A DNA stretch of 24,218 nt from a virus (lineage: Duplodnaviria > Heunggongvirae > Uroviricota > Caudoviricetes). Position numbers and translations under genes: made by a program. Each line of letters opens with the position of its first letter. The first letter of the stretch is position 1. Under the pieces are notes generated by a model. It was not told the DNA's origin, ran no database searches, and saw only the letters and a list, made by a program, of their open reading frames with translations. Positions 7,428-23,064 of the stretch are shown here, piece by piece. The DNA lies in the IMG/VR virus record IMGVR_UViG_2537562231_000018. The stretch is one strand, 5' to 3'.

Positions 7428-8248
7428 CTATCTGGTCACCTTTTTCAGTTGTTGTTCTGCCCATGCTTCTTCAATATCAAACTGCACCACCAGCGTATCG
7501 TAAAAACGTTTAACTGTTTTTTTCCATGTATCAAGAGATATGGCATCGGTTACATTACATATGGCATTAAATGCCTCCGTTGAAGGTAATCTTTCATAGC
7601 CACGACCACCACAACGCTGGCAGTCTCTGATAACAGGCATACCACGTTTTACCGACTCTTCACGATGAATGGCAACACCGCGCCCACGACAATCTTTACA
7701 GGCGGTGGAAACCTCCCCCTTCCCTCCACACTCCGGACAGGCAACTTTTACCACCTCCCTGACTTTTTCCATTCCTCCCAGTAAGACTGATACACGCCTT
7801 TTGTACACTTTGCCCATACTGGCGGCTTACCATCCGGATACTGAATCTTGTTTGTAAAAATCTCGCTTTCAATAAATTTTTTTCCGTGACAGCATGGGCA
7901 CTGTTTTTTGCTCGCCGCGCTCCGGGCATAATCCTCAAACGCATACGAAGCCATAATGCGCATCACTACCGGTTTTATTTCTGCCGGAAGTTTTCTTAAC
8001 GCTGCCACGCGATCACACCGACTGAGAGCGTATTCTGCCAGCAGTTCTGTTGCCCGCTCCCTGTCATTCATACTGATGCCCATTTTCCCAAGGAACGCAG
8101 AAAACCCCATCTCAGCCCGATTCTGTGTCATGCCCTGCGCTGCCATCACATCAGTGATACTCAGCGCATCTTTTGACGTTGAGGCCGATGCATCCGTCAG
8201 ACCCGGTGATTTTGGGGAATAGTATTTTGGTAAATCTTCCAGTTTCAT
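7428..8248 (-). CDS. Q: antitermination protein Q (lambda Q / QuuQ family), split into two overlapping frames by an apparent 1-bp frameshift
   Basis: ORF 7748..8248 (MKLEDLPKYYSPKSP..TDVMAAQGM..SYAFEDYARSAA..CPCCHGKK) aligns with the lambda Q N-terminus; ORF 7428..7817 (..CKDCRGRGVAIHREESVKRGMPVIRDCQRCGGRGYERLP..TWKKTVKRFYDTLVVQ..VTR) aligns with the lambda Q zinc finger and C-terminus. The frames differ by -1 and would join across the A5 run at about 7766..7770. Confidence 0.75.
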
Positions 8249-9682: not shown

Positions 9683-9973
9683 TTACCTCCAGATACGTTG
9701 CTGGAATGTGCGGGACGGACGCGGTGGATGTTCGGAATAAGGGAGCCTGACAGAGATTATCCAGTGACGATAATCGAGGCTGATGGCTTTCTTAACCTCG
9801 TATCCGCGCCTGCGGTAACACTGAATCAGCCATTCGGCCTGTTCTTCAGTGCATGGGGGATGCTGGTACCAGTCGGTTTTAAATACGTGCGAATGCCGCC
9901 CCCGCTTAATGGCCGGGACGGCTTCAGAATTGTGGGATTTTATACGTTGCGCCATCGGGTTCTCCGGTGACAC
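9683..9973 (-). CDS. hypothetical protein (Rem-like by synteny); likely true start ATG at 9955
   Basis: ORF of 96 aa from GTG; ATG at 9955 has GGAG 7 nt upstream; sits between the DUF968 gene and hok as rem does in Qin. Confidence 0.45.
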   Translation of the reverse strand: MSPENPMAQRIKSHNSEAVPAIKRGRHSHVFKTDWYQHPPCTEEQAEWLIQCYRRRGYEVKKAISLDYRHWIISVRLPYSEHPPRPSRTFQQRIWR

Positions 9974-10023
9974 AGCAGGTGCCAGTTGTTCAGGCTGGCG
10001 TGCGAATTGTAAACCAGAATGTC

Positions 10024-10053
10024 AAGAAAAAACAAAACCCGCAGAAGCGGGTT
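10024..10053 (-). terminator. intrinsic terminator at the 3' end of the hok mRNA
   Basis: Minus-strand RNA AACCCGC-UUCU-GCGGGUU followed by UUGUUUUUUCUU. Confidence 0.5.
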
Positions 10054-10121
10054 AAGTGCGGGTGCGTTGAGGATGCCTGACACATCAGAGGTGGCGAGGG
10101 ATTTCTCCCTCGCCGGGTCTC

Positions 10122-10277
10122 TTACTTCTCAGATTCGTAAGCTGTGAAGACAGCGACCTCCGTCTGGCCGGTTCGGATTCGTACCTCGCAGAGGTCTTTC
10201 CTCGTTACCAGTACCGTTACAACGACGGTAATACAGATGACGATCAGGGCGATTAGCATCGCCTTTTGCTGCTTCAT
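10122..10277 (-). CDS. hok: Hok/Gef-family type I toxin (HokD/RelF-like)
   Basis: MKQQKAMLIALIVICITVVVTVLVTRKDLCEVRIRTGQTEVAVFTAYESEK, 51 aa, near-identical in pattern to E. coli Hok/Gef proteins. The tracker ORF is extended upstream in frame to 10334. Confidence 0.85.
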   Translation of the reverse strand: MKQQKAMLIALIVICITVVVTVLVTRKDLCEVRIRTGQTEVAVFTAYESEK

Positions 10278-10325
10278 AGCCTGCTGCTCCTTGCCTTTCG
10301 GCGCGTAAGAGGCTAATCTAAGTGT

Positions 10326-10398
10326 GCAAGTCATAGATATGGCCTCAGATTAATGTTAAGCGTCCTGCAAGACGCATAATGTTAACTGGGGCTTTTCT
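10326..10398 (+). ncRNA. sok: candidate Sok antisense RNA (position and promoter inferred)
   Basis: Plus-strand promoter TTGCCT (10291..10296) -17 bp- TAATCT (10314..10319) faces away from hok and overlaps the hok leader; downstream hairpin GCGTCCTGCAAGACGC and a T-rich stretch. Exact ends not determinable by eye. Confidence 0.3.
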
Positions 10399-10527
10399 CT
10401 GTCTGCCTTACGTCGGCATGCCCGAGGCAGACAGCCTCAAGCACCCGCAGCAATTCTACTTAACTCTCGCTTTACCGCAAACCGTTTTACCCGATATGGG
10501 AATGCCCATATCGCAATGAATTCAGTT

Positions 10528-10626
10528 TCACATCCGATCCATCAAAAACACAACCAGGCAGTAAACGCCCACAACAGAAATAACGGCCAGCGCGCCTTCC
10601 ATTGCCAGTGAAATATCATCCGACAT
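10528..10626 (-). CDS. hypothetical 32-aa hydrophobic peptide
   Basis: MSDDISLAMEGALAVISVVGVYCLVVFLMDRM with a strong AAGGAGGG SD 4 nt upstream of the ATG. Confidence 0.3.
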   Translation of the reverse strand: MSDDISLAMEGALAVISVVGVYCLVVFLMDRM

Positions 10627-10661
10627 ATTCCCTCCTTTGGTGTTAATCCCGGCGAACGTTT

Positions 10662-10745
10662 TTACCCCCACCGACAAATAACATATACTAAAAAAGCGAT
10701 AGCCATAGCAACGCCTGTAATTGCAAATGCTTCAGGCCAGTTCAT
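10662..10745 (-). CDS. hypothetical 27-aa hydrophobic peptide, ATGA-coupled to the upstream gene
   Basis: MNWPEAFAITGVAMAIAFLVYVICRWG; start overlaps the stop of ORF 10742..11311. Confidence 0.25.
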   Translation of the reverse strand: MNWPEAFAITGVAMAIAFLVYVICRWG

Positions 10746-11311
10746 TGGCGCACCTTCTGCGGCGGTTCAGGTAGAAGCATCCGATTGATTACATCGCATT
10801 CAGGGATGCTGATATCATCACCAAGCCATCCTTGACCTTCAGACCAGCATTGCACGTAATACCCGTATTCTGTGTTCACTACGCACCACTGCCCGTCATC
10901 CGGCATTCGCTCACTACAGCTTATCCAACCATCCGGAGTTACCGGATGGTTGGTTGACGTTTCCGAGATTTCCCGAAAATTATTGGTTGACGAACCCTTA
11001 TGTTCCCGAAAGTTTCCAGCCTGAAGCATGGCGGCGCGGTGACACCAGATAATCCAGCCAAGCGCCATATCCCATGCCATGTATTCTCTATCGCCATTTT
11101 TTGCTCTGCGGCGATCTACAGATTCTCCGAAACGCTTCTCCATAAATAATTCATAGGCTGCTCGTTCATCCGATACTGCTGCCAGTGATGCCAGTGCAAT
11201 CCGTGCCAGCTCTTCCGCTTCTTCTGCTGGAAGCACAACGTTGCTACCAGGTCCGTATGTTTCGCGCCACTGCTTGATTGTCAGTAGTCGCTCTTTGGTA
11301 ATAGTGATCAT
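10742..11311 (-). CDS. phage protein with DUF551-like C-terminal domain
   Basis: 189 aa; C-terminal DGWISCSERMPDDGQWCVVNTEYGYYVQCW resembles the DUF551 signature (WIS..D.LP) as recalled. Confidence 0.5.
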   Translation of the reverse strand: MITITKERLLTIKQWRETYGPGSNVVLPAEEAEELARIALASLAAVSDERAAYELFMEKRFGESVDRRRAKNGDREYMAWDMALGWIIWCHRAAMLQAGNFREHKGSSTNNFREISETSTNHPVTPDGWISCSERMPDDGQWCVVNTEYGYYVQCWSEGQGWLGDDISIPECDVINRMLLPEPPQKVRQ

Positions 11312-11823
11312 GCCGCGTTTCCTTCTTTCTTATTAACAATTACACCGTCATATATTTCATTAAGGTGCCCTCTCAACTCCATGCGCCTTAATGCAGATAA
11401 CATGTAATCGCATTCAACCTGCTTATTTCCGGTAAATGGCTTATCGTCAGGATTACCCCAACAGCAATTACCCTTGGGCCACCCATATACTTTCCGTACT
11501 CTTCCGTTAACAACGTGAAGTAATCCCCAGCCAGGTGGTAAATCCTCAATTGAAATAATTCCCGGCTCACTAATAAAGAATCGCCAGTCCCCCATGCCAA
11601 GAGAGGGATTTTTACGGAAACGCTTTTTTCTATCTGCCAACAAGTCAGCACGAGAACACTTCGCCTCTATCAGGCATGATGCTGAATTTCTGAATCCCAT
11701 AGCATCTGGTTGTTCTCCAGTACTGGTTACAGCAACAAAGCGGTCATGAAAGCAAACCTTGAACCCGTTGCGCTTAAGGAACCTGTAGGCAATCTGACAG
11801 AGTTCGCGGTGTGTTAACGCCAT
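11308..11823 (-). CDS. hypothetical protein with PD-(D/E)xK-like nuclease motif
   Basis: 171 aa; GEQPDAMGF..CLIEAKCS fits a PD..ExK active-site spacing; ATGA-coupled to neighbours in the nin-like block. Confidence 0.4.
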   Translation of the reverse strand: MALTHRELCQIAYRFLKRNGFKVCFHDRFVAVTSTGEQPDAMGFRNSASCLIEAKCSRADLLADRKKRFRKNPSLGMGDWRFFISEPGIISIEDLPPGWGLLHVVNGRVRKVYGWPKGNCCWGNPDDKPFTGNKQVECDYMLSALRRMELRGHLNEIYDGVIVNKKEGNAA

Positions 11824-11824
11824 C

Positions 11825-12184
11825 TCATTCTCCTTTGATGCGAATGTTTACAACCTGACAAGCCTCTTTGAGTACCCAGTCAACAGCATCTTTCCATGCA
11901 CCTGTTTCGACGGGTGGATTCTCACGCTTTACCTGTTCATAAAAGCGCACGGCTTTAACTAGTCCTTCTGATGTCACCGGGGCTGGCGGGGCCGTGAATA
12001 ACGCCTGAATTTCATAGTTCGGTCTGTCGTTACAATCTTCTTTTGTCTGGACATATTTCCAGTCACCAGCCCACTGCTTCCCCTGAAAGTCTGTAACGCC
12101 TTTTTTCACGTAGCGATATCGCCATGCCACTGGTTTTGCCTGCCCTGCCTTTTCATGCCCTTCCTGATAATTAATCTCGCTCAT
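11825..12184 (-). CDS. hypothetical phage protein
   Basis: 119-aa ORF, start overlaps the stop of the upstream small ORF; no recognisable motif. Confidence 0.45.
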   Translation of the reverse strand: MSEINYQEGHEKAGQAKPVAWRYRYVKKGVTDFQGKQWAGDWKYVQTKEDCNDRPNYEIQALFTAPPAPVTSEGLVKAVRFYEQVKRENPPVETGAWKDAVDWVLKEACQVVNIRIKGE

Positions 12185-12357
12185 TCATCGCCCCACTCAT
12201 CACAATATGCTTCGACCGGAGTTTTCCCTGCTTCATAATCATCACGCCATGCTTCAGCATCAGCGGCACTTCCACCGCGTAACTCTGCATAATCCATTAA
12301 CAGTTCATGCCATTCTTCAAAACTGGCGTTATATTTAGTTGAACCAAAATCAGCCAT
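12181..12357 (-). CDS. hypothetical small acidic protein (58 aa)
   Basis: MADFGSTKYNASFEEWHELLMDYAELRGGSAADAEAWRDDYEAGKTPVEAYCDEWGDE; start overlaps the stop of 12350..12532 and stop overlaps the start of 11825..12184. Confidence 0.4.
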   Translation of the reverse strand: MADFGSTKYNASFEEWHELLMDYAELRGGSAADAEAWRDDYEAGKTPVEAYCDEWGDE

Positions 12358-12532
12358 TTTGTCCTTCCTCTTCGTCTTTTATTTCGTGGTATGAGTAATT
12401 GCAGTAGTTAAAGAAAATTTCTTTTGCTTCGTCATGAATTTCATCAGGTGTTGCGTCATCATCTACTTCGAATACATCCTCAAAATCTCCACCAGCTATT
12501 CCCGTTTCAATAATTATTTTGAATTTTCGCAT
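12350..12532 (-). CDS. hypothetical small acidic protein (60 aa); tracker ORF extension to 12631 lies inside the IS and is artefactual
   Basis: MRKFKIIIETGIAGGDFEDVFEVDDDATPDEIHDEAKEIFFNYCNYSYHEIKDEEEGQNG; the IS66 left end sits 16 bp upstream of this ATG. Confidence 0.4.
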   Translation of the reverse strand: MRKFKIIIETGIAGGDFEDVFEVDDDATPDEIHDEAKEIFFNYCNYSYHEIKDEEEGQNG

Positions 12533-12629
12533 TTCACTACCGCCATTTGTAAGCGTCGTCTCAGCACCGTCTGGCAGATCCTGAAATTCCTGAGAGAATA
12601 GTGGACACCAAATATGGTGGACGCTATCC

Positions 12630-13034
12630 ATGAAATCATTAACCGCAGTGCGTAAAAAAAGCCCTAATTATCCCGTTGAGTTCAAAATCAAAATGGTTGA
12701 ACTCTCGCATCGACCAGAGATCTCCGTAGCGCAACTCGCTCGTGAGCATGGGATCAACGATAATTTGCTGTTCAAGTGGCGCCAGTACTGGCGCGAAGGA
12801 AAACTACGTCCTCCTTCAACAACAGAAAACAACGTGCCTGAGCTGCTCCCGATAACACTTGATGCCGAAGATGTTGTCCCTACAACCTCCCCCCGGTCAC
12901 AACCTGTAGCTGCTGCGACACCTGAATCACTCAATATCAGCTGTGAAGTGACGTTCCGGCACGGATCACTCCGTCTGAATGGTGCCATCAGCGAAAATAT
13001 CCTGAACCTGCTGATACGGGAGCTCAAACGTTGA
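12630..13034 (+). CDS. IS66-family accessory protein (orfA/TnpA)
   Basis: 134 aa; EFKIKMVELSHRPEISVAQLAREHGINDNLLFKWRQYW HTH region typical of IS66 orfA. Confidence 0.85.
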   Translation: MKSLTAVRKKSPNYPVEFKIKMVELSHRPEISVAQLAREHGINDNLLFKWRQYWREGKLRPPSTTENNVPELLPITLDAEDVVPTTSPRSQPVAAATPESLNISCEVTFRHGSLRLNGAISENILNLLIRELKR

Positions 13035-13378
13035 TCCCATTACCATCAGGGACAAAGATCTGGCTGGTCGCTGGCATCACCGATATGAGAAACGGCTTCA
13101 ACGGCCTGGCGGCAAAGGTGCAGACGACGCTGAAAGACGATCCGATGTCAGGTCACGTTTTTATCTTCCGTGGGCGTAATGGCAGTCAGGTAAAGCTCCT
13201 CTGGTCTACCGGCGATGGACTGTGTCTGCTGACCAAACGGCTGGAGCGCGGCCGCTTCGCCTGGCCGTCAGCCCGGGATGGCAAAGTGTTCCTCACACCG
13301 GCACAGCTGGCGATGCTGCTGGAAGGTATCGACTGGCGGCAGCCTAAAAGACTGCTTACGTCCCTGACTATGTTGTAA
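13031..13378 (+). CDS. IS66-family orfB (TnpB)
   Basis: 115 aa; KIWLVAGITDMRNGFNGLAAKV..HVFIFRGRNG..KLLWSTGDGLCLLTKRLE, the characteristic IS66 orfB pattern; ATGA overlap with orfA. Confidence 0.85.
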   Translation: MIPLPSGTKIWLVAGITDMRNGFNGLAAKVQTTLKDDPMSGHVFIFRGRNGSQVKLLWSTGDGLCLLTKRLERGRFAWPSARDGKVFLTPAQLAMLLEGIDWRQPKRLLTSLTML

Positions 13379-13426: not shown

Positions 13427-14965
13427 ATGAGCAGCTCACTTCCTGACGATATCAATGCACTGAAACGTCTCCTTGCCGAACAGGAGGCGCTGAACCGTGC
13501 CCTGCAGGAAAAGCTGAACGAGCGTGAACGCGAAATAGACCATCTGCAGGCACAGCTGGATAAGCTGCGCCGGATGAACTTCGGCAGCCGCTCGGAAAAA
13601 GTCTCCCGTCGTATCGCACAGATGGAAGCTGACCTGAAGGCACTTCAGAAAGAAAGTGATACCCTTACCGGTCGGGTTGACGACCCGGCCGTGCAGCGCC
13701 CGCTGCGTCAAACCCGCACCCGCAAACCGTTCCCCGAATCACTCCCCCGCGATGAAAAACGGCTGCTGCCGGCAGCGTCATGCTGCCCGGAATGTGGAGG
13801 CTCGCTGAGCTATCTGGGTGAGGATGCCGCCGAACAGCTGGAGCTGATGCGCAGCGCCTTCCGGGTTATCCGGACTGTACGTGAAAAGCATGCCTGTACT
13901 CAGTGCGATGCCATCGTGCAGGCCCCCGCGCCTTCACGGCCCATCGAGCGGGGTATCGCAGGACCGGGGCTGCTGGCCCGCGTGCTGATCTCAAAGTATG
14001 CAGAGCACACCCCGCTGTACCGCCAGTCTGAAATGTACGGCCGCCAGGGCGTGGAGCTGAGTCGTTCACTGCTGTCGGGCTGGGTGGATGCATGCTGCCG
14101 GCTACTGTCACCGCTGGAAGAAGCGCTTCAGGACTATGTGCTGACTGACGGTAAGCTCCATGCTGATGACACGCCTGTCCCGGTGCTGTTGCCAGGCAAT
14201 AAGAAAACGAAGACCGGGCGGTTATGGACCTACGTTCGTGACGACCGTAACGCCGGGTCAACGCTGGCGCCGGCGGTGTGGTTCGCTTACAGCCCGGACA
14301 GAAAAGGCATCCATCCGCAGACCCATCTTGCGGGGTTCAGTGGTGTACTGCAGGCGGATGCATACGCCGGGTTCAACGAGCTGTACCGGGATGGCCGGAT
14401 AACGGAAGCCGCTTGTTGGGCTCACGCCCGCCGTAAAATCCACGATGTGCACGTTCGCACCCCGTCAGCCCTGACGGAGGAAGCGCTGAAACGGATCGGC
14501 GAACTGTACGCCATCGAGGCAGAGATAAGGGGAATGACGGCGGAGCAGCGCCTTGCCGAACGTCAGTTGAAAACGAAACCGCTGCTGAAATCCCTGGAAA
14601 GCTGGCTGCGTGAAAAGATGAAAACCCTGTCGCGACACTCAGAACTGGCGAAAGCGTTCGCATACGCCCTGAACCAGTGGCCGGCGCTGACGTACTATGC
14701 AGATGATGGCTGGGCTGAGGCGGACAATAACATCGCTGAAAATGCGTTGCGGATGGTCAGTCTGGGCCGCAAAAACTACCTGTTCTTCGGTTCGGATCAT
14801 GGAGGAGAGCGGGGAGCGCTGCTGTACAGCCTGATCGGGACGTGCAAACTGAACGGAGTGGAGCCAGAAAGCTACCTCCGCTATGTCCTTGACGTCATAG
14901 CCGACTGGCCGATAAACCGGGTCGGCGAACTGCTCCCCTGGCGCGTAGCACTGCCGACTGAATAA
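13427..14965 (+). CDS. IS66-family transposase (orfC/TnpC), intact
   Basis: 512 aa; N-terminal coiled coil, CCPECGG..C.QC zinc motif, [27 protein letters not shown] and downstream catalytic region. Confidence 0.9.
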
Positions 14966-19772: not shown

Positions 19773-20174
19773 TAGCTAACCAACGAAGCTAAGGTTGGTA
19801 ATTAAGGAGTTCTCCACGGGTGAGGTGGAGTGCGTACGCCGGACACGGGTGAGCATCCGGCACTGACAGTTTACTGAAAGGATATTTCCATGAAAAGTCA
19901 GACCATAACGCGAAAGCGCACGGCGAGGTAGCTGGTTCATAGATAACCTGTCGTTAAATTTTCGTCGACCGTGCGCTTCCGGTTGTGGCACTCCGCGAAA
20001 TGGCGCGGCGGTAAGTATGGCGGGGTTATTCCTTCCCCGTTGAGGACATCGGGTTGTCAGGTTGACCATACGCTTAAGTGACAACCCCGCTGCAACGCCC
20101 TCTGTTATCAATTTTCTGGTGACGTTTGGCGGTATCAGTTTTACTCCGTGGCTGCTCTGCCGCCCTTTTTAAAG

Positions 20175-20339: not shown

Positions 20340-20441
20340 ATGGAAACGTTATTACCAAACGTTAATACGTCTGAAGGTTGTTTTGAAATTGGTGTCACTA
20401 TCAGTAACCCTGTATTTACTGAAGATGCCATTAACAAGAGA
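20340..20441 (+). pseudogene. 5' portion (34 codons) of a small gene interrupted by IS66 copy 2; 3' portion at 22982..23068
   Basis: METLLPNVNTSEGCFEIGVTISNPVFTEDAINKR then the IS; joining across the IS and one copy of the target duplication restores a 62-codon ORF whose TGA overlaps the ATG of the downstream gene at 23065. Confidence 0.45.
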
Positions 20442-20526
20442 GTAAGCGTAAACTGACCGCCGTATGTAGCCATCAGACGAGAATTGGTAACTTAGACGCC
20501 CATCTGATATAGACGGACATCTAAGT

Positions 20527-20952
20527 ATGGAATTACAGGACTGGCGAAAAGAACCTCGTAAAAACTATTCGAATGAATTCAAACTTCGTATGGTGGAACT
20601 GGCATCACAACCTGGAGCTTGTGTTGCACAGATTGCACGTGAAAATGGCGTCAATGATAATGTTATTTTCAAATGGCTCAGGCTCTGGCAGAACGAAGGG
20701 CGTGTTTCGCGGCGTCTTCCGGTAACGACCTCTTCTGACACTGGCGTTGAATTATTACCTGTAGAAATAACGCCGGATGAGCAGAAAGAACCTGTGGCGG
20801 CCATTGCGCCGTCTTTATCCACTTCCACTCAGACCAGAGTCAGTGCCAGTTCCTGCAAGGTGGAATTCCGTCACGGTAACATGACGCTGGAAAATCCATC
20901 GCCAGAGCTGCTCACAGTGTTGATCCGTGAACTGACCGGGAGGGGAAGATGA
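20527..20952 (+). CDS. IS66-family accessory protein (orfA), copy 2
   Basis: 141 aa; EFKLRMVELASQPGACVAQIARENGVNDNVIFKWLRLW. Confidence 0.85.
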   Translation: MELQDWRKEPRKNYSNEFKLRMVELASQPGACVAQIARENGVNDNVIFKWLRLWQNEGRVSRRLPVTTSSDTGVELLPVEITPDEQKEPVAAIAPSLSTSTQTRVSASSCKVEFRHGNMTLENPSPELLTVLIRELTGRGR

Positions 20953-21299
20953 TCTCACTCCCATCAGGTACCCGTATCTGGCTCGTTGCCGGCGTTACCG
21001 ATATGCGTAAATCCTTCAACGGACTGGGAGAACAGGTACAACATGTGCTGAATGATAATCCCTTCTCCGGTCACCTGTTTATCTTCCGTGGCCGACGGGG
21101 TGACACCGTCAAAATTCTTTGGGCTGATGCTGATGGTCTGTGCCTGTTCACCAAACGCCTGGAGGAAGGCCAGTTTATCTGGCCTGCGGTACGTGACGGC
21201 AAGGTATCCATTACCCGCTCGCAACTGGCAATGCTCCTCGATAAGCTGGACTGGCGTCAGCCAAAAACTTCCAGCCGTAACTCACTGACAATGTTGTAA
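20949..21299 (+). CDS. IS66-family orfB (TnpB), copy 2
   Basis: 116 aa; RIWLVAGVTDMRKSFNGLGEQV..HLFIFRGRRGDTVKILWADADGLCLFTKRLE. Confidence 0.85.
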   Translation: MISLPSGTRIWLVAGVTDMRKSFNGLGEQVQHVLNDNPFSGHLFIFRGRRGDTVKILWADADGLCLFTKRLEEGQFIWPAVRDGKVSITRSQLAMLLDKLDWRQPKTSSRNSLTML

Positions 21300-21329
21300 A
21301 AAACTCCTGACCGCATTATAAAAACGGTC

Positions 21330-22943
21330 ATGAGTCAGAAATACCTCATTCGCATCGCAGAGCTGGAAAGGTTGCTCTCTGAGCAGGCTGAAGCCCTCCG
21401 TCAGAAAGACCAGCAACTGAGTCTGGTTGAAGAGACGGAAGCCTTCCTGCGCTCTGCACTGACACGTGCCGAAGAAAAGATCGAAGAAGATGAACGGGAA
21501 ATAGAACATCTGCGGGCTCAGATAGAAAAACTGCGCCGGATGCTGTTCGGTACCCGTTCTGAAAAACTGCGTCGTGAAGTTGAACTGGCTGAGGCTCTGC
21601 TGAAACAACGTGAACAGGACAGCGATCGTTAACAGTGGGCGGGAAGACGATCCTCAGGTTCCCCGCCAGTTGCGACAGTCGCGCCATCGTCGTCCGTTAC
21701 CGGCACACCTTCCCCGTGAAATACACCGCCTGGAGCCAGAAGAAAGCTGTTGCCCGGAGTGTGGCGGTGAGCTGGATTATCTGGGGGAAGTCAGCGCAGA
21801 ACAACTGGAACTGGTGAGCAGCGCCCTAAAAGTGATCCGCACAGAACGGGTAAAAAAAGCCTGTACAAAATGTGACTGCATCGTTGAAGCACCGGCACCA
21901 TCCCGCCCGATAGAGCGTGGTATCGCGGGCCCGGATTACTTGCCCGCGTGTTAACGGGAAAATACTGCGAACATCTGCCACTGTATCGTCAGAGTGAAAT
22001 CTTTGCCCGCCAGGGTGTCGAACTGAGCCGGGCCTTACTCTCCAACTGGGTTGACGCGTGCTGCCAGTTAATGACACCGGTGAATGATGCCCTGTACCGT
22101 TATGTAATGAACACCCGCAAGGTTCACACTGATGACACACCGGTAAAGGTACTGGCACCGGGTCAGAAAAAGGCGAAAACAGGGCGTATCTGGACGTATG
22201 TCCGGGATGATCGCAATGTGGGTTCGTCATCTCCTCCAGCGGTCTGGTTCGCGTACTCGCCGAACCGGCAGGGGAAACACCCGGAGCAACACCTCCGCCC
22301 CTTCCGGGGTATCCTGCAGGCGGATGCGTTCACAGGTTACGACAGGTTGTTCAGTGCAGAACGTGAAGGTGGTGCACTGACAGAAGTTGCGTGCTGGGCC
22401 CATGCCCGGCGAAAAATCCACGATGTATACATCAGCAGCAAAAGTGCGACGGCAGAAGAAGCCCTGAAGCGAATCAGTGAACTGTACGCCATCGAGGATG
22501 AAATACGGGGATTACCGGAGTCAGAGCGTCTTGCCGTCAGGCAGCAGCGAAGCAAAGTGTTACTGACGTCGCTGCATGAATGGATGGTGGAGAAGAATGG
22601 TACGCTGTCGAAAAAATCCAGACTGGGCGAAGCGTTCAGCTATGTACTGAATCAGTGGGATGCCCTCTGTTATTACAGTGATGACGGTCTGGCGGAGGCG
22701 GATAATAATGCTGCGGAAAGAGCGCTTCGTGCAGTCTGTCTAGGAAAGAAAAACTTTATGTTCTTTGGCAGCGATCACGGCGGCGAGCGTGGAGCACTGT
22801 TGTACGGGCTGATCGGCACCTGCCGTCTGAACGGTATCGATCCGGAAGCGTATCTGCGCCATATCCTGAGCGTACTGCCGGAATGGCCTTCCAACCGAGT
22901 TGACGAACTCCTGCCATGGAACGTAGTACTCACCAATAAATAA
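21330..22943 (+). pseudogene. IS66-family transposase (orfC) broken into three ORFs by two frameshifts
   Basis: ORFs 21330..21632, 21610..21954 and 21948..22943 together align along the copy-1 TnpC; the second break coincides with a G-run (GGCCCGGATTAC where copy 1 has the equivalent of GGCCCGGGATTAC). Confidence 0.8.
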
Positions 22944-23064
22944 GCGTCAATACGGTGCTCCGTTGACGCTTACACAAGAGAAAACACGAACGGGAGTTAT
23001 TAAATAAAATATGCATTCTTTCAATGCTGGCCCGTTTACGTCCGATACAAAAAGGATGCTGGCA

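What the first reader, a model, noticed from the sequence alone, without database searches (positions are those of the whole stretch)
10024..10420. Apparently intact hok/sok type I toxin-antitoxin embedded in the nin-like block
The Hok ORF is full length with its own terminator, and a plausible antisense promoter (TTGCCT-17-TAATCT) faces across the leader, so the module may be functional rather than a relic. It could stabilise a prophage that carries several broken genes.
Basis: partly seen in the sequence, partly recalled or inferred. Interest (0 to 1): 0.5.

Follow-up and report, generated by a model that had tools for sequence, protein, structure and literature searches.

The report
Intact prophage hok/mok/sok toxin-antitoxin cassette
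This is a complete copy of a well-known small "host-killing" toxin gene (hok) with its antisense RNA antidote (sok), found in most E. coli genomes and already tested in a related Shiga-toxin phage, so it is real but ordinary.

Summary
Window 10028-10481 carries a complete hok/mok/sok type I toxin-antitoxin cassette on the minus strand, with the Sok antisense gene on the plus strand.

Every R1-defined part is present and canonical:
- Hok peptide (Pfam 3.9e-23) and a 70-codon mok.
- Leader structure (Rfam RF01794, 114.8 bits against a cut-off of 59).
- 12-bp 5'-3' tac/fbi pairing, ucb/mok-SD sequestration, the tac/ucb switch and the Sok target hairpin.
- A 3' protective hairpin and a terminator.
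- A Sok promoter (TTGCCT-17-TAATCT) and a 71-nt Sok RNA (10326-10396).

The locus belongs to the hokD/hokW clade. It matches 4719 of 5426 complete E. coli genomes and many Stx phages. It is 89% identical to hokW-sokW of phage Sp5, which has been shown to be a working toxin-antitoxin pair that speeds lysis on induction.

The idea that it stabilises a decaying prophage is untested. It is weakened by a near-identical prophage in which an IS66-adjacent deletion removed the cassette. Verdict: already known, low interest.

The parts
10476..10481 (-). hok promoter -35 (TTTGCG)
   Evidence: Read. Conservation across 103 related loci begins here. TTTGCG occurs in 44 of 103 and TTGGCG in 26 of 103. A weak -35, inferred by position, 17 nt upstream of the -10.
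10453..10458 (-). hok promoter -10 (TAGAAT)
   Evidence: Read. TAGAAT occurs in 86 of 103 related loci. It lies 6 nt upstream of the inferred +1.
10028..10446 (-). Full-length hok mRNA, about 417 nt. The 5' end is inferred from the Rfam model start and the R1-type 5' GGCGCUUGAGG; the 3' end is in the terminator T-run.
   Evidence: Rfam model position 1 aligns to 10446. MFE -175.1 kcal/mol, z=-7.44. Conservation across 103 loci spans about -36 to +413.
10435..10446 (-). tac (translational activator element), 5' GGGUGCUUGAGG
   Evidence: Pairs 12 of 12 with fbi in both the MFE and centroid structures of the full-length mRNA. Pairs with ucb in the truncated or 5'-only fold.
10420..10428 (-). Partner of tac in the metastable 5' hairpin of the nascent transcript (mRNA nt 19-27)
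   Evidence: Nine canonical pairs, 5-13 with 19-27, in folds of 3'-shortened RNA. Canonical in 98 or more of 103 loci.
10386..10394 (-). ucb, the anti-SD box (AAGCCCCAG, mRNA nt 53-61)
   Evidence: Pairs with the mok SD region in the full-length fold, 6 of 6 canonical. Pairs with tac in the open fold, 7 of 7 canonical.
10309..10346 (-). Sok target hairpin of the open form: mok SD GAGG (10343-10346) paired to dcb (10309-10313), with a 13-nt loop UGACUUGCACACU holding mok codons 1-4
   Evidence: Local fold and the fold of the first 142 nt. Matches the Rfam consensus hairpin.
10122..10334 (-). mok ORF: 70 codons, in frame with hok, 19 codons upstream of the hok ATG
   Evidence: ORF list. Same arrangement as the annotated mokW in VT2-Sakai. 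In-frame 213-nt mok in 83 of 103 related loci.
10287..10292 (-). hok Shine-Dalgarno (AAGGAG), 9 nt before the ATG
   Evidence: Read. Homology with K-12 hokD begins just upstream of it.
10122..10277 (-). hok CDS, 51 aa: MKQQKAMLIALIVICITVVVTVLVTRKDLCEVRIRTGQTEVAVFTAYESEK
   Evidence: Pfam HOK_GEF 3.9e-23. NCBIfam Hok-family hit at 51.2 bits, below its 73-bit cut-off. 46 of 51 residues identical to HokW and to K-12 HokD (sequences). The conserved residues listed are all present.
10136..10139 (-). UACG at the Tyr47 codon: TadA A-to-I editing motif (Tyr to Cys recoding)
   Evidence: Read. TACGAA is kept in all common variants. The motif and its role are described in preprint 10.1101/2025.08.07.668861. 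Editing itself was not tested.
10093..10114 (-). 3' stem-loop of the processed mRNA (GGCGAGGGA-GAAA-UCCCUCGCC), protecting against 3' exonucleases
   Evidence: MFE. Compensatory changes across loci: pair 337-350 is A-U in 36, G-C in 20 and G-U in 46; pairs 339-348 and 340-347 also vary G-C to A-U. The R1 counterpart is required for toxicity (PMC9841398).
10060..10072 (-). fbi (fold-back inhibitory element), CCUCAA(C)GCACCC
   Evidence: Pairs with tac, with one bulged C. Identical in hokW, Rac442 hok and K-12 hokD.
10026..10053 (-). Intrinsic terminator of hok mRNA (AACCCGC-UUCU-GCGGGUU followed by a T-run)
   Evidence: Terminator scan; MFE.
10291..10319 (+). Sok promoter: -35 TTGCCT (10291-10296), 17-nt spacer, -10 TAATCT (10314-10319)
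   Evidence: Read. Positional homologue of the sokW promoter, whose -10 was mutated experimentally. -35 in 79 of 103 loci, -10 TAATCT in 18 of 103 and TAACCT in 76 of 103, spacer 17 in 103 of 103.
10326..10396 (+). Predicted Sok antisense RNA, 71 nt: 15-nt single-stranded 5' tail (GCAAGUCAUAGAUAU), long hairpin, UUUU
   Evidence: Ends placed by alignment to the annotated 71-nt sokW (L002 1777-1847). Fold -27.6 kcal/mol, z=-5.10. The tail is complementary to the mok SD-proximal stem, the AUG and the target loop.

Best explanation
Window 10028-10481 is a complete, sequence-intact hok/mok/sok type I toxin-antitoxin cassette of the hokD/hokW clade. It sits as an independently transcribed insert in the nin region of a lambdoid prophage.

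The steps below are inferred from plasmid R1 and from hokW-sokW. They were not measured for this copy.
1. A weak constitutive promoter makes a stable hok mRNA of about 417 nt.
2. While the transcript is nascent, its 5' tac element is held in a metastable hairpin.
3. Once full length, tac pairs with the 3' fbi element and the ucb box covers the mok Shine-Dalgarno. The mRNA is then neither translated nor bound by Sok.
4. Slow 3' trimming removes fbi. tac switches to ucb, and the mok SD moves into a hairpin with dcb that presents a loop to Sok.
5. A stronger convergent promoter makes the short-lived 71-nt Sok RNA. Its single-stranded 5' tail pairs with that loop and the mok start, which blocks mok translation and triggers duplex cleavage.
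6. hok translation is coupled to mok. If Sok supply stops, Mok and Hok are made.
7. Hok inserts in the inner membrane and collapses it. Toxicity may be raised by TadA editing of Tyr47 to Cys.

The demonstrated role of the closest studied relative, hokW-sokW of Sp5, is to advance lysis and raise phage yield on induction. Whether this copy has that role, an addiction role, or no role in a decaying prophage is open.
For: Identity and family:
- Pfam HOK_GEF 3.9e-23.
- Rfam RF01794 full-length, 114.8 bits. hokW scores 113.5, an R1-type locus 87.2, and the truncated K-12 hokD gives no hit.
- 89.2% nucleotide identity to VT2-Sakai hokW/mokW/sokW over 84% of the 521-nt query, and 99.4% over all of it to an Stx2a prophage of strain UC4224.

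Intactness:
- tac/fbi 12 of 12 pairs in MFE and centroid, z=-7.44.
- ucb/mok-SD 6 of 6, tac/ucb 7 of 7, mok-SD/dcb 5 of 5 and metastable hairpin 9 of 9 canonical pairs, all with the clade consensus bases.
- The first 142 nt alone, and the mRNA cut at nt 366, fold into the open form predicted by R1 and Rfam.
- The window's minority alleles are compensated (G15-C46 against A15-U46), unpaired (71, 77, 82), or neutral-looking (C161).
- mok is open for all 19 codons before hok, which R1 mutagenesis shows is required.
- The Sok promoter is at least as close to consensus as the tested sokW promoter.

Other support:
- Function of the homologue: HokW is toxic and sokW neutralises it from its own promoter. 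Sok is lost and Hok is made after mitomycin C (PMC8621323).
- The exact 471-bp locus (10020-10490) is identical in three further independent contigs: two other NCBI assemblies and one ENA metagenome contig.
Against: - No expression, half-life or toxicity data exist for this copy. The transcript ends are inferred by homology.
- Both promoters are poor consensus matches and were missed by the consensus scan.
- Covariation inside the clade says little about tac, fbi and ucb, because these elements hardly vary.
- Intact-looking chromosomal hokA, hokB and hokC loci were reported inactive in killing assays, so intact sequence does not guarantee activity.
- This Hok variant has five substitutions relative to HokW (I16, V19, V22, T45, A46). 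They are conservative but untested.
Confidence: 0.85

Rival explanations
1. Prophage addiction. The cassette kills cells that lose the prophage or this DNA segment, so it preserves a decaying prophage by post-segregational killing.
For: - R1 hok/sok is the paradigm of post-segregational killing, and type I systems are cited as helping to maintain prophages.
- hok genes are about 4-fold enriched in prophages.
- The cassette is intact while neighbouring genes are interrupted: Q, dicB and the exonuclease, plus two IS66 copies, one inserted into dicB.
Against: - L130 has the same backbone with window 9798-12548 deleted, cassette included, in a viable sequenced isolate.
- Chromosomal hokA, hokB and hokC loci failed post-segregational killing and rifampicin activation.
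- The hokW study found no growth effect of deleting the locus. It found a lysis-timing role and did not test stabilisation.
- The Q 'break' is a one-base homopolymer difference that may be an assembly error.
Confidence: 0.2
2. Lysis accelerator. As for hokW-sokW in Sp5, Sok disappears on prophage induction and Hok permeabilises the membrane ahead of holin and endolysin, which raises phage release.
For: - Direct experiments on the closest studied homologue (PMC8621323).
- The identical cassette occurs in relatives with an intact 273-aa Q.
- hok is co-oriented with the early-right genes (replication genes, nin, Q, lysis, all on the minus strand). Read-through on induction would therefore collide with the convergent Sok promoter. 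This last point is inference.
Against: - In this window Q appears frameshifted, dicB is cut by an IS66 and another IS66 lies in the nin-proximal block. This copy may never be induced productively.
- In Sp5 the cassette lies elsewhere, at the right end of the prophage and opposite in orientation to the neighbouring tail-fibre-side genes. The trigger cannot simply be early-operon read-through.
- The effect size in Sp5 was only about 2-fold.
Confidence: 0.3
3. Silent passenger. The sequence is intact because it arrived recently or recombines often, but it is not expressed at a level that matters and has no role.
For: - Reported inactivity of intact chromosomal hok loci.
- Very high copy number and mosaic spread, with a median of 2 and up to 10 places per genome, which fits selfish hitch-hiking.
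- The cassette can be lost.
Against: - About 100 of 103 sampled loci keep an open 51-codon hok.
- The regulatory elements are near-invariant, while the flanks diverge immediately outside -36 and +413. This argues for selection on the whole module.
- The homologue hokW-sokW is active.
Confidence: 0.15
4. Anti-phage abortive infection. Shut-off of host transcription by an infecting lytic phage depletes Sok, and Hok kills the cell before the phage matures.
For: R1 hok/sok on a high-copy plasmid reduced T4 plating efficiency and plaque size (cited). Prophages often carry defence genes.
Against: hok is not enriched near defence systems (section heading; discussion). PADLOC was not queried here. The T4 effect was weak and seen only at high copy.
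Confidence: 0.1

Closest known systems
hokW-mokW-sokW of Stx2 phage Sp5 / VT2-Sakai (933W L0137, L0144, L0138)
   Same: - 89.2% nucleotide identity over 84% of the 521-nt query, and Hok 46 of 51 aa identical.
- The same 70-codon mok in frame with hok.
- The same Sok -35 (TTGCCT), 17-nt spacer and 71-nt Sok.
- The same tac, fbi, ucb and dcb sequences, and an equal Rfam score (113.5 against 114.8).
- Shown experimentally to be a toxin/antitoxin pair (PMC8621323).
   Different: - Position: in Sp5 it lies at the right end of the prophage, beyond the large H0150 ORF. Here it lies in the nin region.
- The Sok 5' tail and target loop differ (GUUCAGCAUGG against GCAAGUCAUAG).
- The -10 is TAACCT there and TAATCT here.
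- The apical part of the 5' hairpin differs.
- The VT2-Sakai copy lacks the GC-hairpin terminator after fbi.
hokD (relF) of cryptic prophage Qin, E. coli K-12
   Same: - Same neighbourhood on the same strand: Q-like ydfT, ydfU/DUF968, a small gene, then hok.
- Hok 46 of 51 aa identical.
- hok SD, CDS, 3' hairpin, fbi and terminator all align.
- PGAP labels most close relatives 'hokD'.
   Different: - The K-12 copy is truncated. Homology starts about 10 nt upstream of the hok SD.
- The promoter, tac, ucb, mok start and the whole sok gene are replaced by relBE, and there is no Rfam leader hit.
- The window carries the complete form.
hok/mok/sok of plasmid R1 (parB)
   Same: - The same architecture and predicted folding pathway.
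- 5'-3' end pairing, with compensating sequence: GGCGCUU with AAGCGCC in an R1-type locus, against GGGUGCUUGAGG with CCUCAACGCACCC here.
- ucb, mok-SD and dcb, a convergent Sok promoter inside the mok leader, and 19 mok codons before hok.
   Different: - Plasmid-borne, with a proven post-segregational killing role.
- The Hok peptide is only distantly similar (HokW against R1 Hok is 44% identical, per PMC8621323).
- R1 mok is in a different frame from hok: T315A is a mok stop but Hok Y48N. Here mok is in frame, so Mok is an N-terminally extended Hok.

Membership tests
[quoted passage not shown] | Hok peptide of about 50 aa with an N-terminal hydrophobic helix and the conserved residues M1, C16, T18, L30, C31, E32, E41 (logo numbering) | tested here: met
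   Pfam HOK_GEF E=3.9e-23, profile 1-42/42. M1, C15, T17, L29, C30, E31 and E40 are present in the 51-aa product.
[quoted passage not shown] | hok mRNA leader with the family's sequence and secondary structure (tac/ucb stem, 5' hairpin, Sok-complement hairpin, mok-SD/dcb hairpin) | tested here: met
   cmscan full-length 1-157/157, 114.8 bits against gathering 59, on the hok-sense strand. An independent MFE fold of nt 1-142 gives the same structure.
[quoted passage not shown] | Long-range 5'-3' pairing (tac/fbi) that locks the full-length mRNA | tested here: met
   nt 1-12 pair with nt 375-387 (window 10446-10435 with 10060-10072) in both MFE and centroid, z=-7.44. The same pairing appears in hokW, Rac442 and R1-type loci.
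[quoted passage not shown] | Overlapping leader ORF mok with its own SD, open at least up to the hok SD | tested here: met
   GAGG at 10346-10343 and ATG at 10334, with 19 sense codons before the hok ATG and 70 codons in all. The requirement comes from R1 mutagenesis.
[quoted passage not shown] | Cis-encoded antisense Sok RNA: convergent promoter in the mok leader, single-stranded 5' tail complementary to the mok translation-initiation region, terminator hairpin | tested here: met
   At the sequence level only. The promoter aligns to the experimentally mutated sokW promoter. The 71-nt RNA folds as a 15-nt tail plus hairpin plus UUUU, z=-5.10. The transcript itself was not observed.
[quoted passage not shown] | Stable toxin mRNA with slow 3' processing, unstable Sok, and RNase III cleavage of the duplex | not testable with these tools
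   Needs rifampicin-chase Northern blots. The 3' protective hairpin (10093-10114) is present and shows compensatory changes.
[quoted passage not shown] | Hok is toxic and Sok neutralises it | not testable with these tools
   Shown for hokW-sokW, whose peptide is 90% identical (PMC8621323). 42 of 45 diverse Hok peptides tested were toxic.
hokD in the K-12 sense (relF, Qin) | Hok gene without its own promoter, leader, mok and sok, lying downstream of relBE | tested here: not met
   The window has the full leader and sok. K-12 hokD aligns only from just upstream of the hok SD onward and gives no Rfam hit. NCBIfam gives only a below-cut-off Hok-family hit. The identical protein in UC4224 is named 'Hok/Gef family protein'.

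The most novel reading that the evidence does not exclude
The cassette may be one member of a set of mutually orthogonal hok/sok modules.

The most variable stretch of the whole 417-nt mRNA is the few nucleotides that form the Sok 5' tail and the target loop, which are also mok codons 2-3 (window about 10320-10331). There are 22 different 16-nt tails among 103 loci. Three of four pairs of prophages from the same genome differ there. Everything else in the RNA is near-invariant.

This would let each co-resident prophage keep a private antidote, so each module would report only on its own prophage. In nin-located copies such as this one, co-orientation with the early-right operon could couple Hok release to induction, through collision with the convergent Sok promoter.
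Probability: 0.2. Interest if true: 0.45.

Novelty: already known. Interest (0 to 1): 0.1.

Why it matters
It matters little as a discovery. The family is in Pfam and Rfam, PGAP annotates it, it occurs in most E. coli genomes and many Stx phages, and a 90%-identical homologue has been dissected experimentally.

It has three uses for annotation.
- It gives exact coordinates for every regulatory element of an intact nin-region copy, the complete counterpart of the truncated K-12 hokD.
- It shows that the Rfam 'sok' model actually matches the hok-sense leader, so the strand of an RF01794 hit is the toxin strand and not the antitoxin strand.
- It provides a natural deletion (L130) that bears on the claim that such cassettes lock prophage DNA in place.

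Tried and rejected
- The consensus promoter scan found neither the hok nor the Sok promoter, since both are weak matches. Promoter calls therefore rest on homology and conservation, not on the scan.
- Covariation within the hokD/hokW clade (103 unique loci from IMG/VR and reference records, selected with an exact 23-mer and so biased toward close relatives) is uninformative for tac, fbi and ucb, which hardly vary. Compensatory changes appear only in the 5' hairpin (15-46) and the 3' hairpin (337-350, 339-348, 340-347).
- The MFE helix pairing the Sok target (nt 115-130) with nt 358-372 in the full-length fold is not conserved across loci (canonical in only 6 to 32 of 103 at several pairs). I do not count it as a feature.
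- MFE folds of the mRNA cut at 356, 361 or 372 gave the metastable 5' hairpin rather than the open tac/ucb form. Only the cut at 366 and the isolated 142-nt leader gave the open form. Thermodynamic folding supports the switch but does not prove it.
- NCBIfam has no HokD-specific model that this peptide passes.
- A literature search for the assembly accession prefix (ADUM) found nothing, so the strain was not named.
- The two tiny hydrophobic ORFs upstream (10528-10626 and 10662-10745) were considered as possible parts of the cassette. I rejected this because conservation across loci begins only at about -36 and neither has a family hit.

Full report
**What is there.**
The minus strand of window 10122-10277 encodes a 51-aa peptide, MKQQKAMLIALIVICITVVVTVLVTRKDLCEVRIRTGQTEVAVFTAYESEK. 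It matches Pfam HOK_GEF over the whole profile (E=3.9e-23). An in-frame ATG at 10334, preceded by GAGG (10346-10343), extends it to a 70-codon ORF.

Rfam family RF01794 ('sok') matches full length at 10446-10272 on the minus strand, with 114.8 bits against a gathering score of 59 and E=8.4e-26. The last consensus bases of that model align to the hok ATG, and its positions 83-88 align to the mok Shine-Dalgarno. The model therefore describes the sense leader of the hok mRNA, not the antisense RNA. It also hits the hok-sense strand in hokW, in Rac442 hok and in an R1-type plasmid locus.

A GC-rich hairpin with a T-run lies at 10053-10026.

**True extent.**
I aligned 103 unique related loci. These comprise the window, the loci fetched earlier that contain the 23-mer, and loci from 120 IMG/VR stretches matched by an exact 23-mer in the hok CDS. 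Conservation starts abruptly near -36 relative to the inferred +1 (10446) and ends in the terminator T-run near +413. The flanks are unrelated.

The cassette is therefore about 10028-10481. It omits the 5' tac element (10435-10446) and the hok promoter (-10 TAGAAT 10453-10458, found in 86 of 103 loci; -35 TTTGCG 10476-10481).

- The 417-nt RNA from 10446 to 10030 folds at -175.1 kcal/mol, z=-7.44, and none of 100 shuffles does as well. Both MFE and centroid pair nt 1-12 with nt 375-387, with one bulged C. This is the tac/fbi end-pairing of R1.
- In that closed form GCC.CAG (nt 55-61, ucb) covers CUG.GGC around the mok SD.
- The first 142 nt alone, and the mRNA cut at nt 366, fold into the open form: tac (1-3, 5-8) with ucb (53-59), the 13-48 hairpin, and a hairpin GAGGC/GCCUC (mok SD/dcb) closing a 13-nt loop. 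This is the structure encoded in the Rfam model.
- Other cut points give the metastable hairpin 5-13 with 19-27, described for nascent R1 hok mRNA (PMC9841398).
- At every one of these pairs the window carries a canonical pair with the clade's majority bases.
- The window's minority alleles look harmless. G15-C46 is compensated against A15-U46. U71, U77 and G82 are unpaired positions. C161 lies just after the hok SD. T at the Sok -10 position 4 gives TAATCT.
- The 3' hairpin that protects the processed mRNA (10093-10114) shows compensatory changes across loci.
- An R1-type locus shows the same end-pairing with different, compensating sequence: GGCGCUU with AAGCGCC.

**Sok.**
The VT2-Sakai GenBank record annotates mokW, hokW and a 71-nt sokW. 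Aligning it to the window places the window's Sok at 10326-10396. The promoter has the same -35, the same 17-nt spacer, and a -10 that differs by one base.

Takada et al. (PMC8621323) mutated this -10 (TAACCT to GAGCCG, deduced from primers YO-421/422). The mutation abolished protection, and sokW supplied in trans restored it.

The predicted window Sok folds as a 15-nt free 5' tail, a long hairpin and UUUU (-27.6 kcal/mol, z=-5.10). The tail is complementary to the mok AUG and the target loop.

**What it is related to.**
- The 521-nt region matches 4719 of 5426 complete E. coli genomes, and 3818 of them cover at least 80% of it. The median is 2 places per genome and the maximum is 10. Hits are usually annotated 'hokD'.
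- The best hit is 99.4% identical, in an Stx2a prophage of strain UC4224, with the same neighbours: Q, RusA, DUF968, a 90-aa gene, Hok, a 34-aa ORF, DUF551.
- 102 phage records match, including Stx-converting phages.
- K-12 hokD (relF) lies in the same neighbourhood of Qin (ydfT, ydfU, rem, hokD). It aligns only from just upstream of the hok SD onward. Its promoter, leader, mok start and sok are replaced by relBE, and it has no Rfam hit.
- The window thus carries the complete form of what K-12 holds as a fragment.
- mok is in frame with hok in 83 of 103 loci and in the annotated mokW. In R1 it is out of frame.

**Origin and state of the prophage.**
The window is the entire contig ADUM01000122.1 of assembly GCA_000184765.2.

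Gene order on the minus strand:
- Nu1 fragment, PerC-like gene, Rz/Rz1, lysozyme, DUF1327, SASA esterase.
- Q, RusA, DUF968, hok/sok, DUF551.
- An intact IS66 element, encoded on the plus strand (left end at 12549, extending to about 15000).
- DUF977, replication genes, YdaT and YdaS.

On the plus strand:
- DUF1391 and DicF.
- A dicB fragment of 34 codons.
- A second IS66 whose transposase is in three pieces.
- An exonuclease with a frame change.

Q is split by the loss of one A in an A-run. Relatives have an intact 273-aa Q and exactly the same 471-bp hok locus. That 'break' may be a homopolymer error in an old draft assembly.

**Function.**
The mechanism given under best explanation is transferred from R1 (summarised in PMC9841398) and from hokW-sokW. 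Only the sequence prerequisites were tested here.

For the biological role, the one direct experiment on this clade shows the following:
- sokW vanishes after mitomycin C, in a RecA-dependent way.
- HokW appears about 1 h before the endolysin.
- Lysis is about 40 min earlier and phage yield about 2-fold higher with the locus.

Stabilisation of a prophage has not been tested. Three points argue against a strong addiction effect:
- Assembly GCA_052185235.1 (L130) has the same backbone at 99.95% identity but lacks window 9798-12548, cassette included. The deletion is flush with the IS66 end at 12549.
- Intact chromosomal hokA, hokB and hokC were reported unable to mediate post-segregational killing.
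- Deleting hokW-sokW had no growth effect.

The near-invariance of the regulatory elements, together with open hok ORFs in about 100 of 103 loci, argues against a dead relic.

**Extra layer.**
The Tyr47 codon reads UAC followed by G (10139-10136). This is the TadA recognition motif, which in hokB, and reportedly in hokC, hokD and hokE, recodes Tyr to Cys and enables a disulfide that raises toxicity. TACGAA is kept in all common variants. Editing was not tested.

**Verdict.**
The object is a textbook, catalogued element, so the finding is already known and of low interest. The only mildly open point is the hypervariable Sok tail and target loop, described under the novel case.

Noticed in passing
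window 10320-10331 (mRNA nt 116-127), and the same columns in L006-L125: The Sok 5' tail, target loop and mok codons 2-3 form the most variable stretch of the otherwise near-invariant 417-nt hok mRNA. There are 22 different 16-nt tails among 103 loci. Three of four pairs of prophage contigs from the same genome differ there. This may be a specificity determinant that prevents cross-protection between co-resident cassettes.
   Followed up: partly
L130 (GCA_052185235.1, JBAGRI010000036.1) against window 9798-12548: A near-identical prophage (99.95%) lacks 2751 bp, including the whole hok/sok cassette. The deletion ends exactly at the left end of the IS66 element (window 12549), so it is an IS-adjacent deletion.
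   Followed up: yes
window 10136-10139 (minus strand): A UACG motif lies at the Hok Tyr47 codon. This is the TadA A-to-I editing site reported for hok genes, and it would recode Tyr47 to Cys. It is conserved in all common variants.
   Followed up: partly
window 7428-8248 (minus strand), near 7768: The Q antiterminator, with two Antiterm domains, is split into 166-aa and 129-aa ORFs by the loss of one A in an A-run (A5 here against A6 in L126, where Q is 273 aa). This is either a real frameshift or a homopolymer error in the draft assembly.
   Followed up: partly
window 12549 to about 15000, and about 20480 to 23000: There are two IS66-family elements. The first is intact (ORFs 12630-13034, 13031-13378, 13427-14965). 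The second has its transposase in three pieces (21330-21632, 21610-21954, 21948-22943) and truncates dicB after codon 34 (20340-20441).
   Followed up: partly
window 20114-20165 (+) and 6487-6659 (-): Rfam reports DicF sRNA (75 bits, full length) just upstream of the truncated dicB. It also reports STnc100 (100.8 bits) between the SASA esterase gene and Q.
   Followed up: no
window 1256-1645 (minus strand): A 129-aa ORF has a PerC transcriptional-activator domain (E=2.3e-31). It resembles the Pch/PerC virulence regulators carried by EPEC and EHEC prophages.
   Followed up: no
window 10528-10626 and 10662-10745 (minus strand): Two tiny hydrophobic ORFs (32 aa MSDDISLAMEGALAVISVVGVYCLVVFLMDRM; 27 aa MNWPEAFAITGVAMAIAFLVYVICRWG) lie between DUF551 and the hok promoter. 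The first is annotated as a hypothetical protein in relatives. Neither has a family hit, and both lie outside the conserved cassette.
   Followed up: partly
window 23350-24217 (+), near 24040: A 3'-5' exonuclease homologue changes reading frame near 24040, relative to the 823-aa UC4224 protein, and runs off the contig end.
   Followed up: no
L002 (VT2-Sakai), downstream of fbi: The experimentally studied hokW copy lacks the GC-hairpin terminator that follows fbi in the window, UC4224, Rac442 and K-12 hokD. Its sequence diverges right after ...CAACGCACCCGCGCTTTACC. Its 3' end formation must differ.
   Followed up: no
Rfam RF01794, at window 10446-10272 and in L002, L003 and L005: The Rfam family named 'sok antitoxin' matches the hok-sense strand in every locus tested. 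The strand of such a hit marks the toxin mRNA leader, not the Sok gene.
   Followed up: yes
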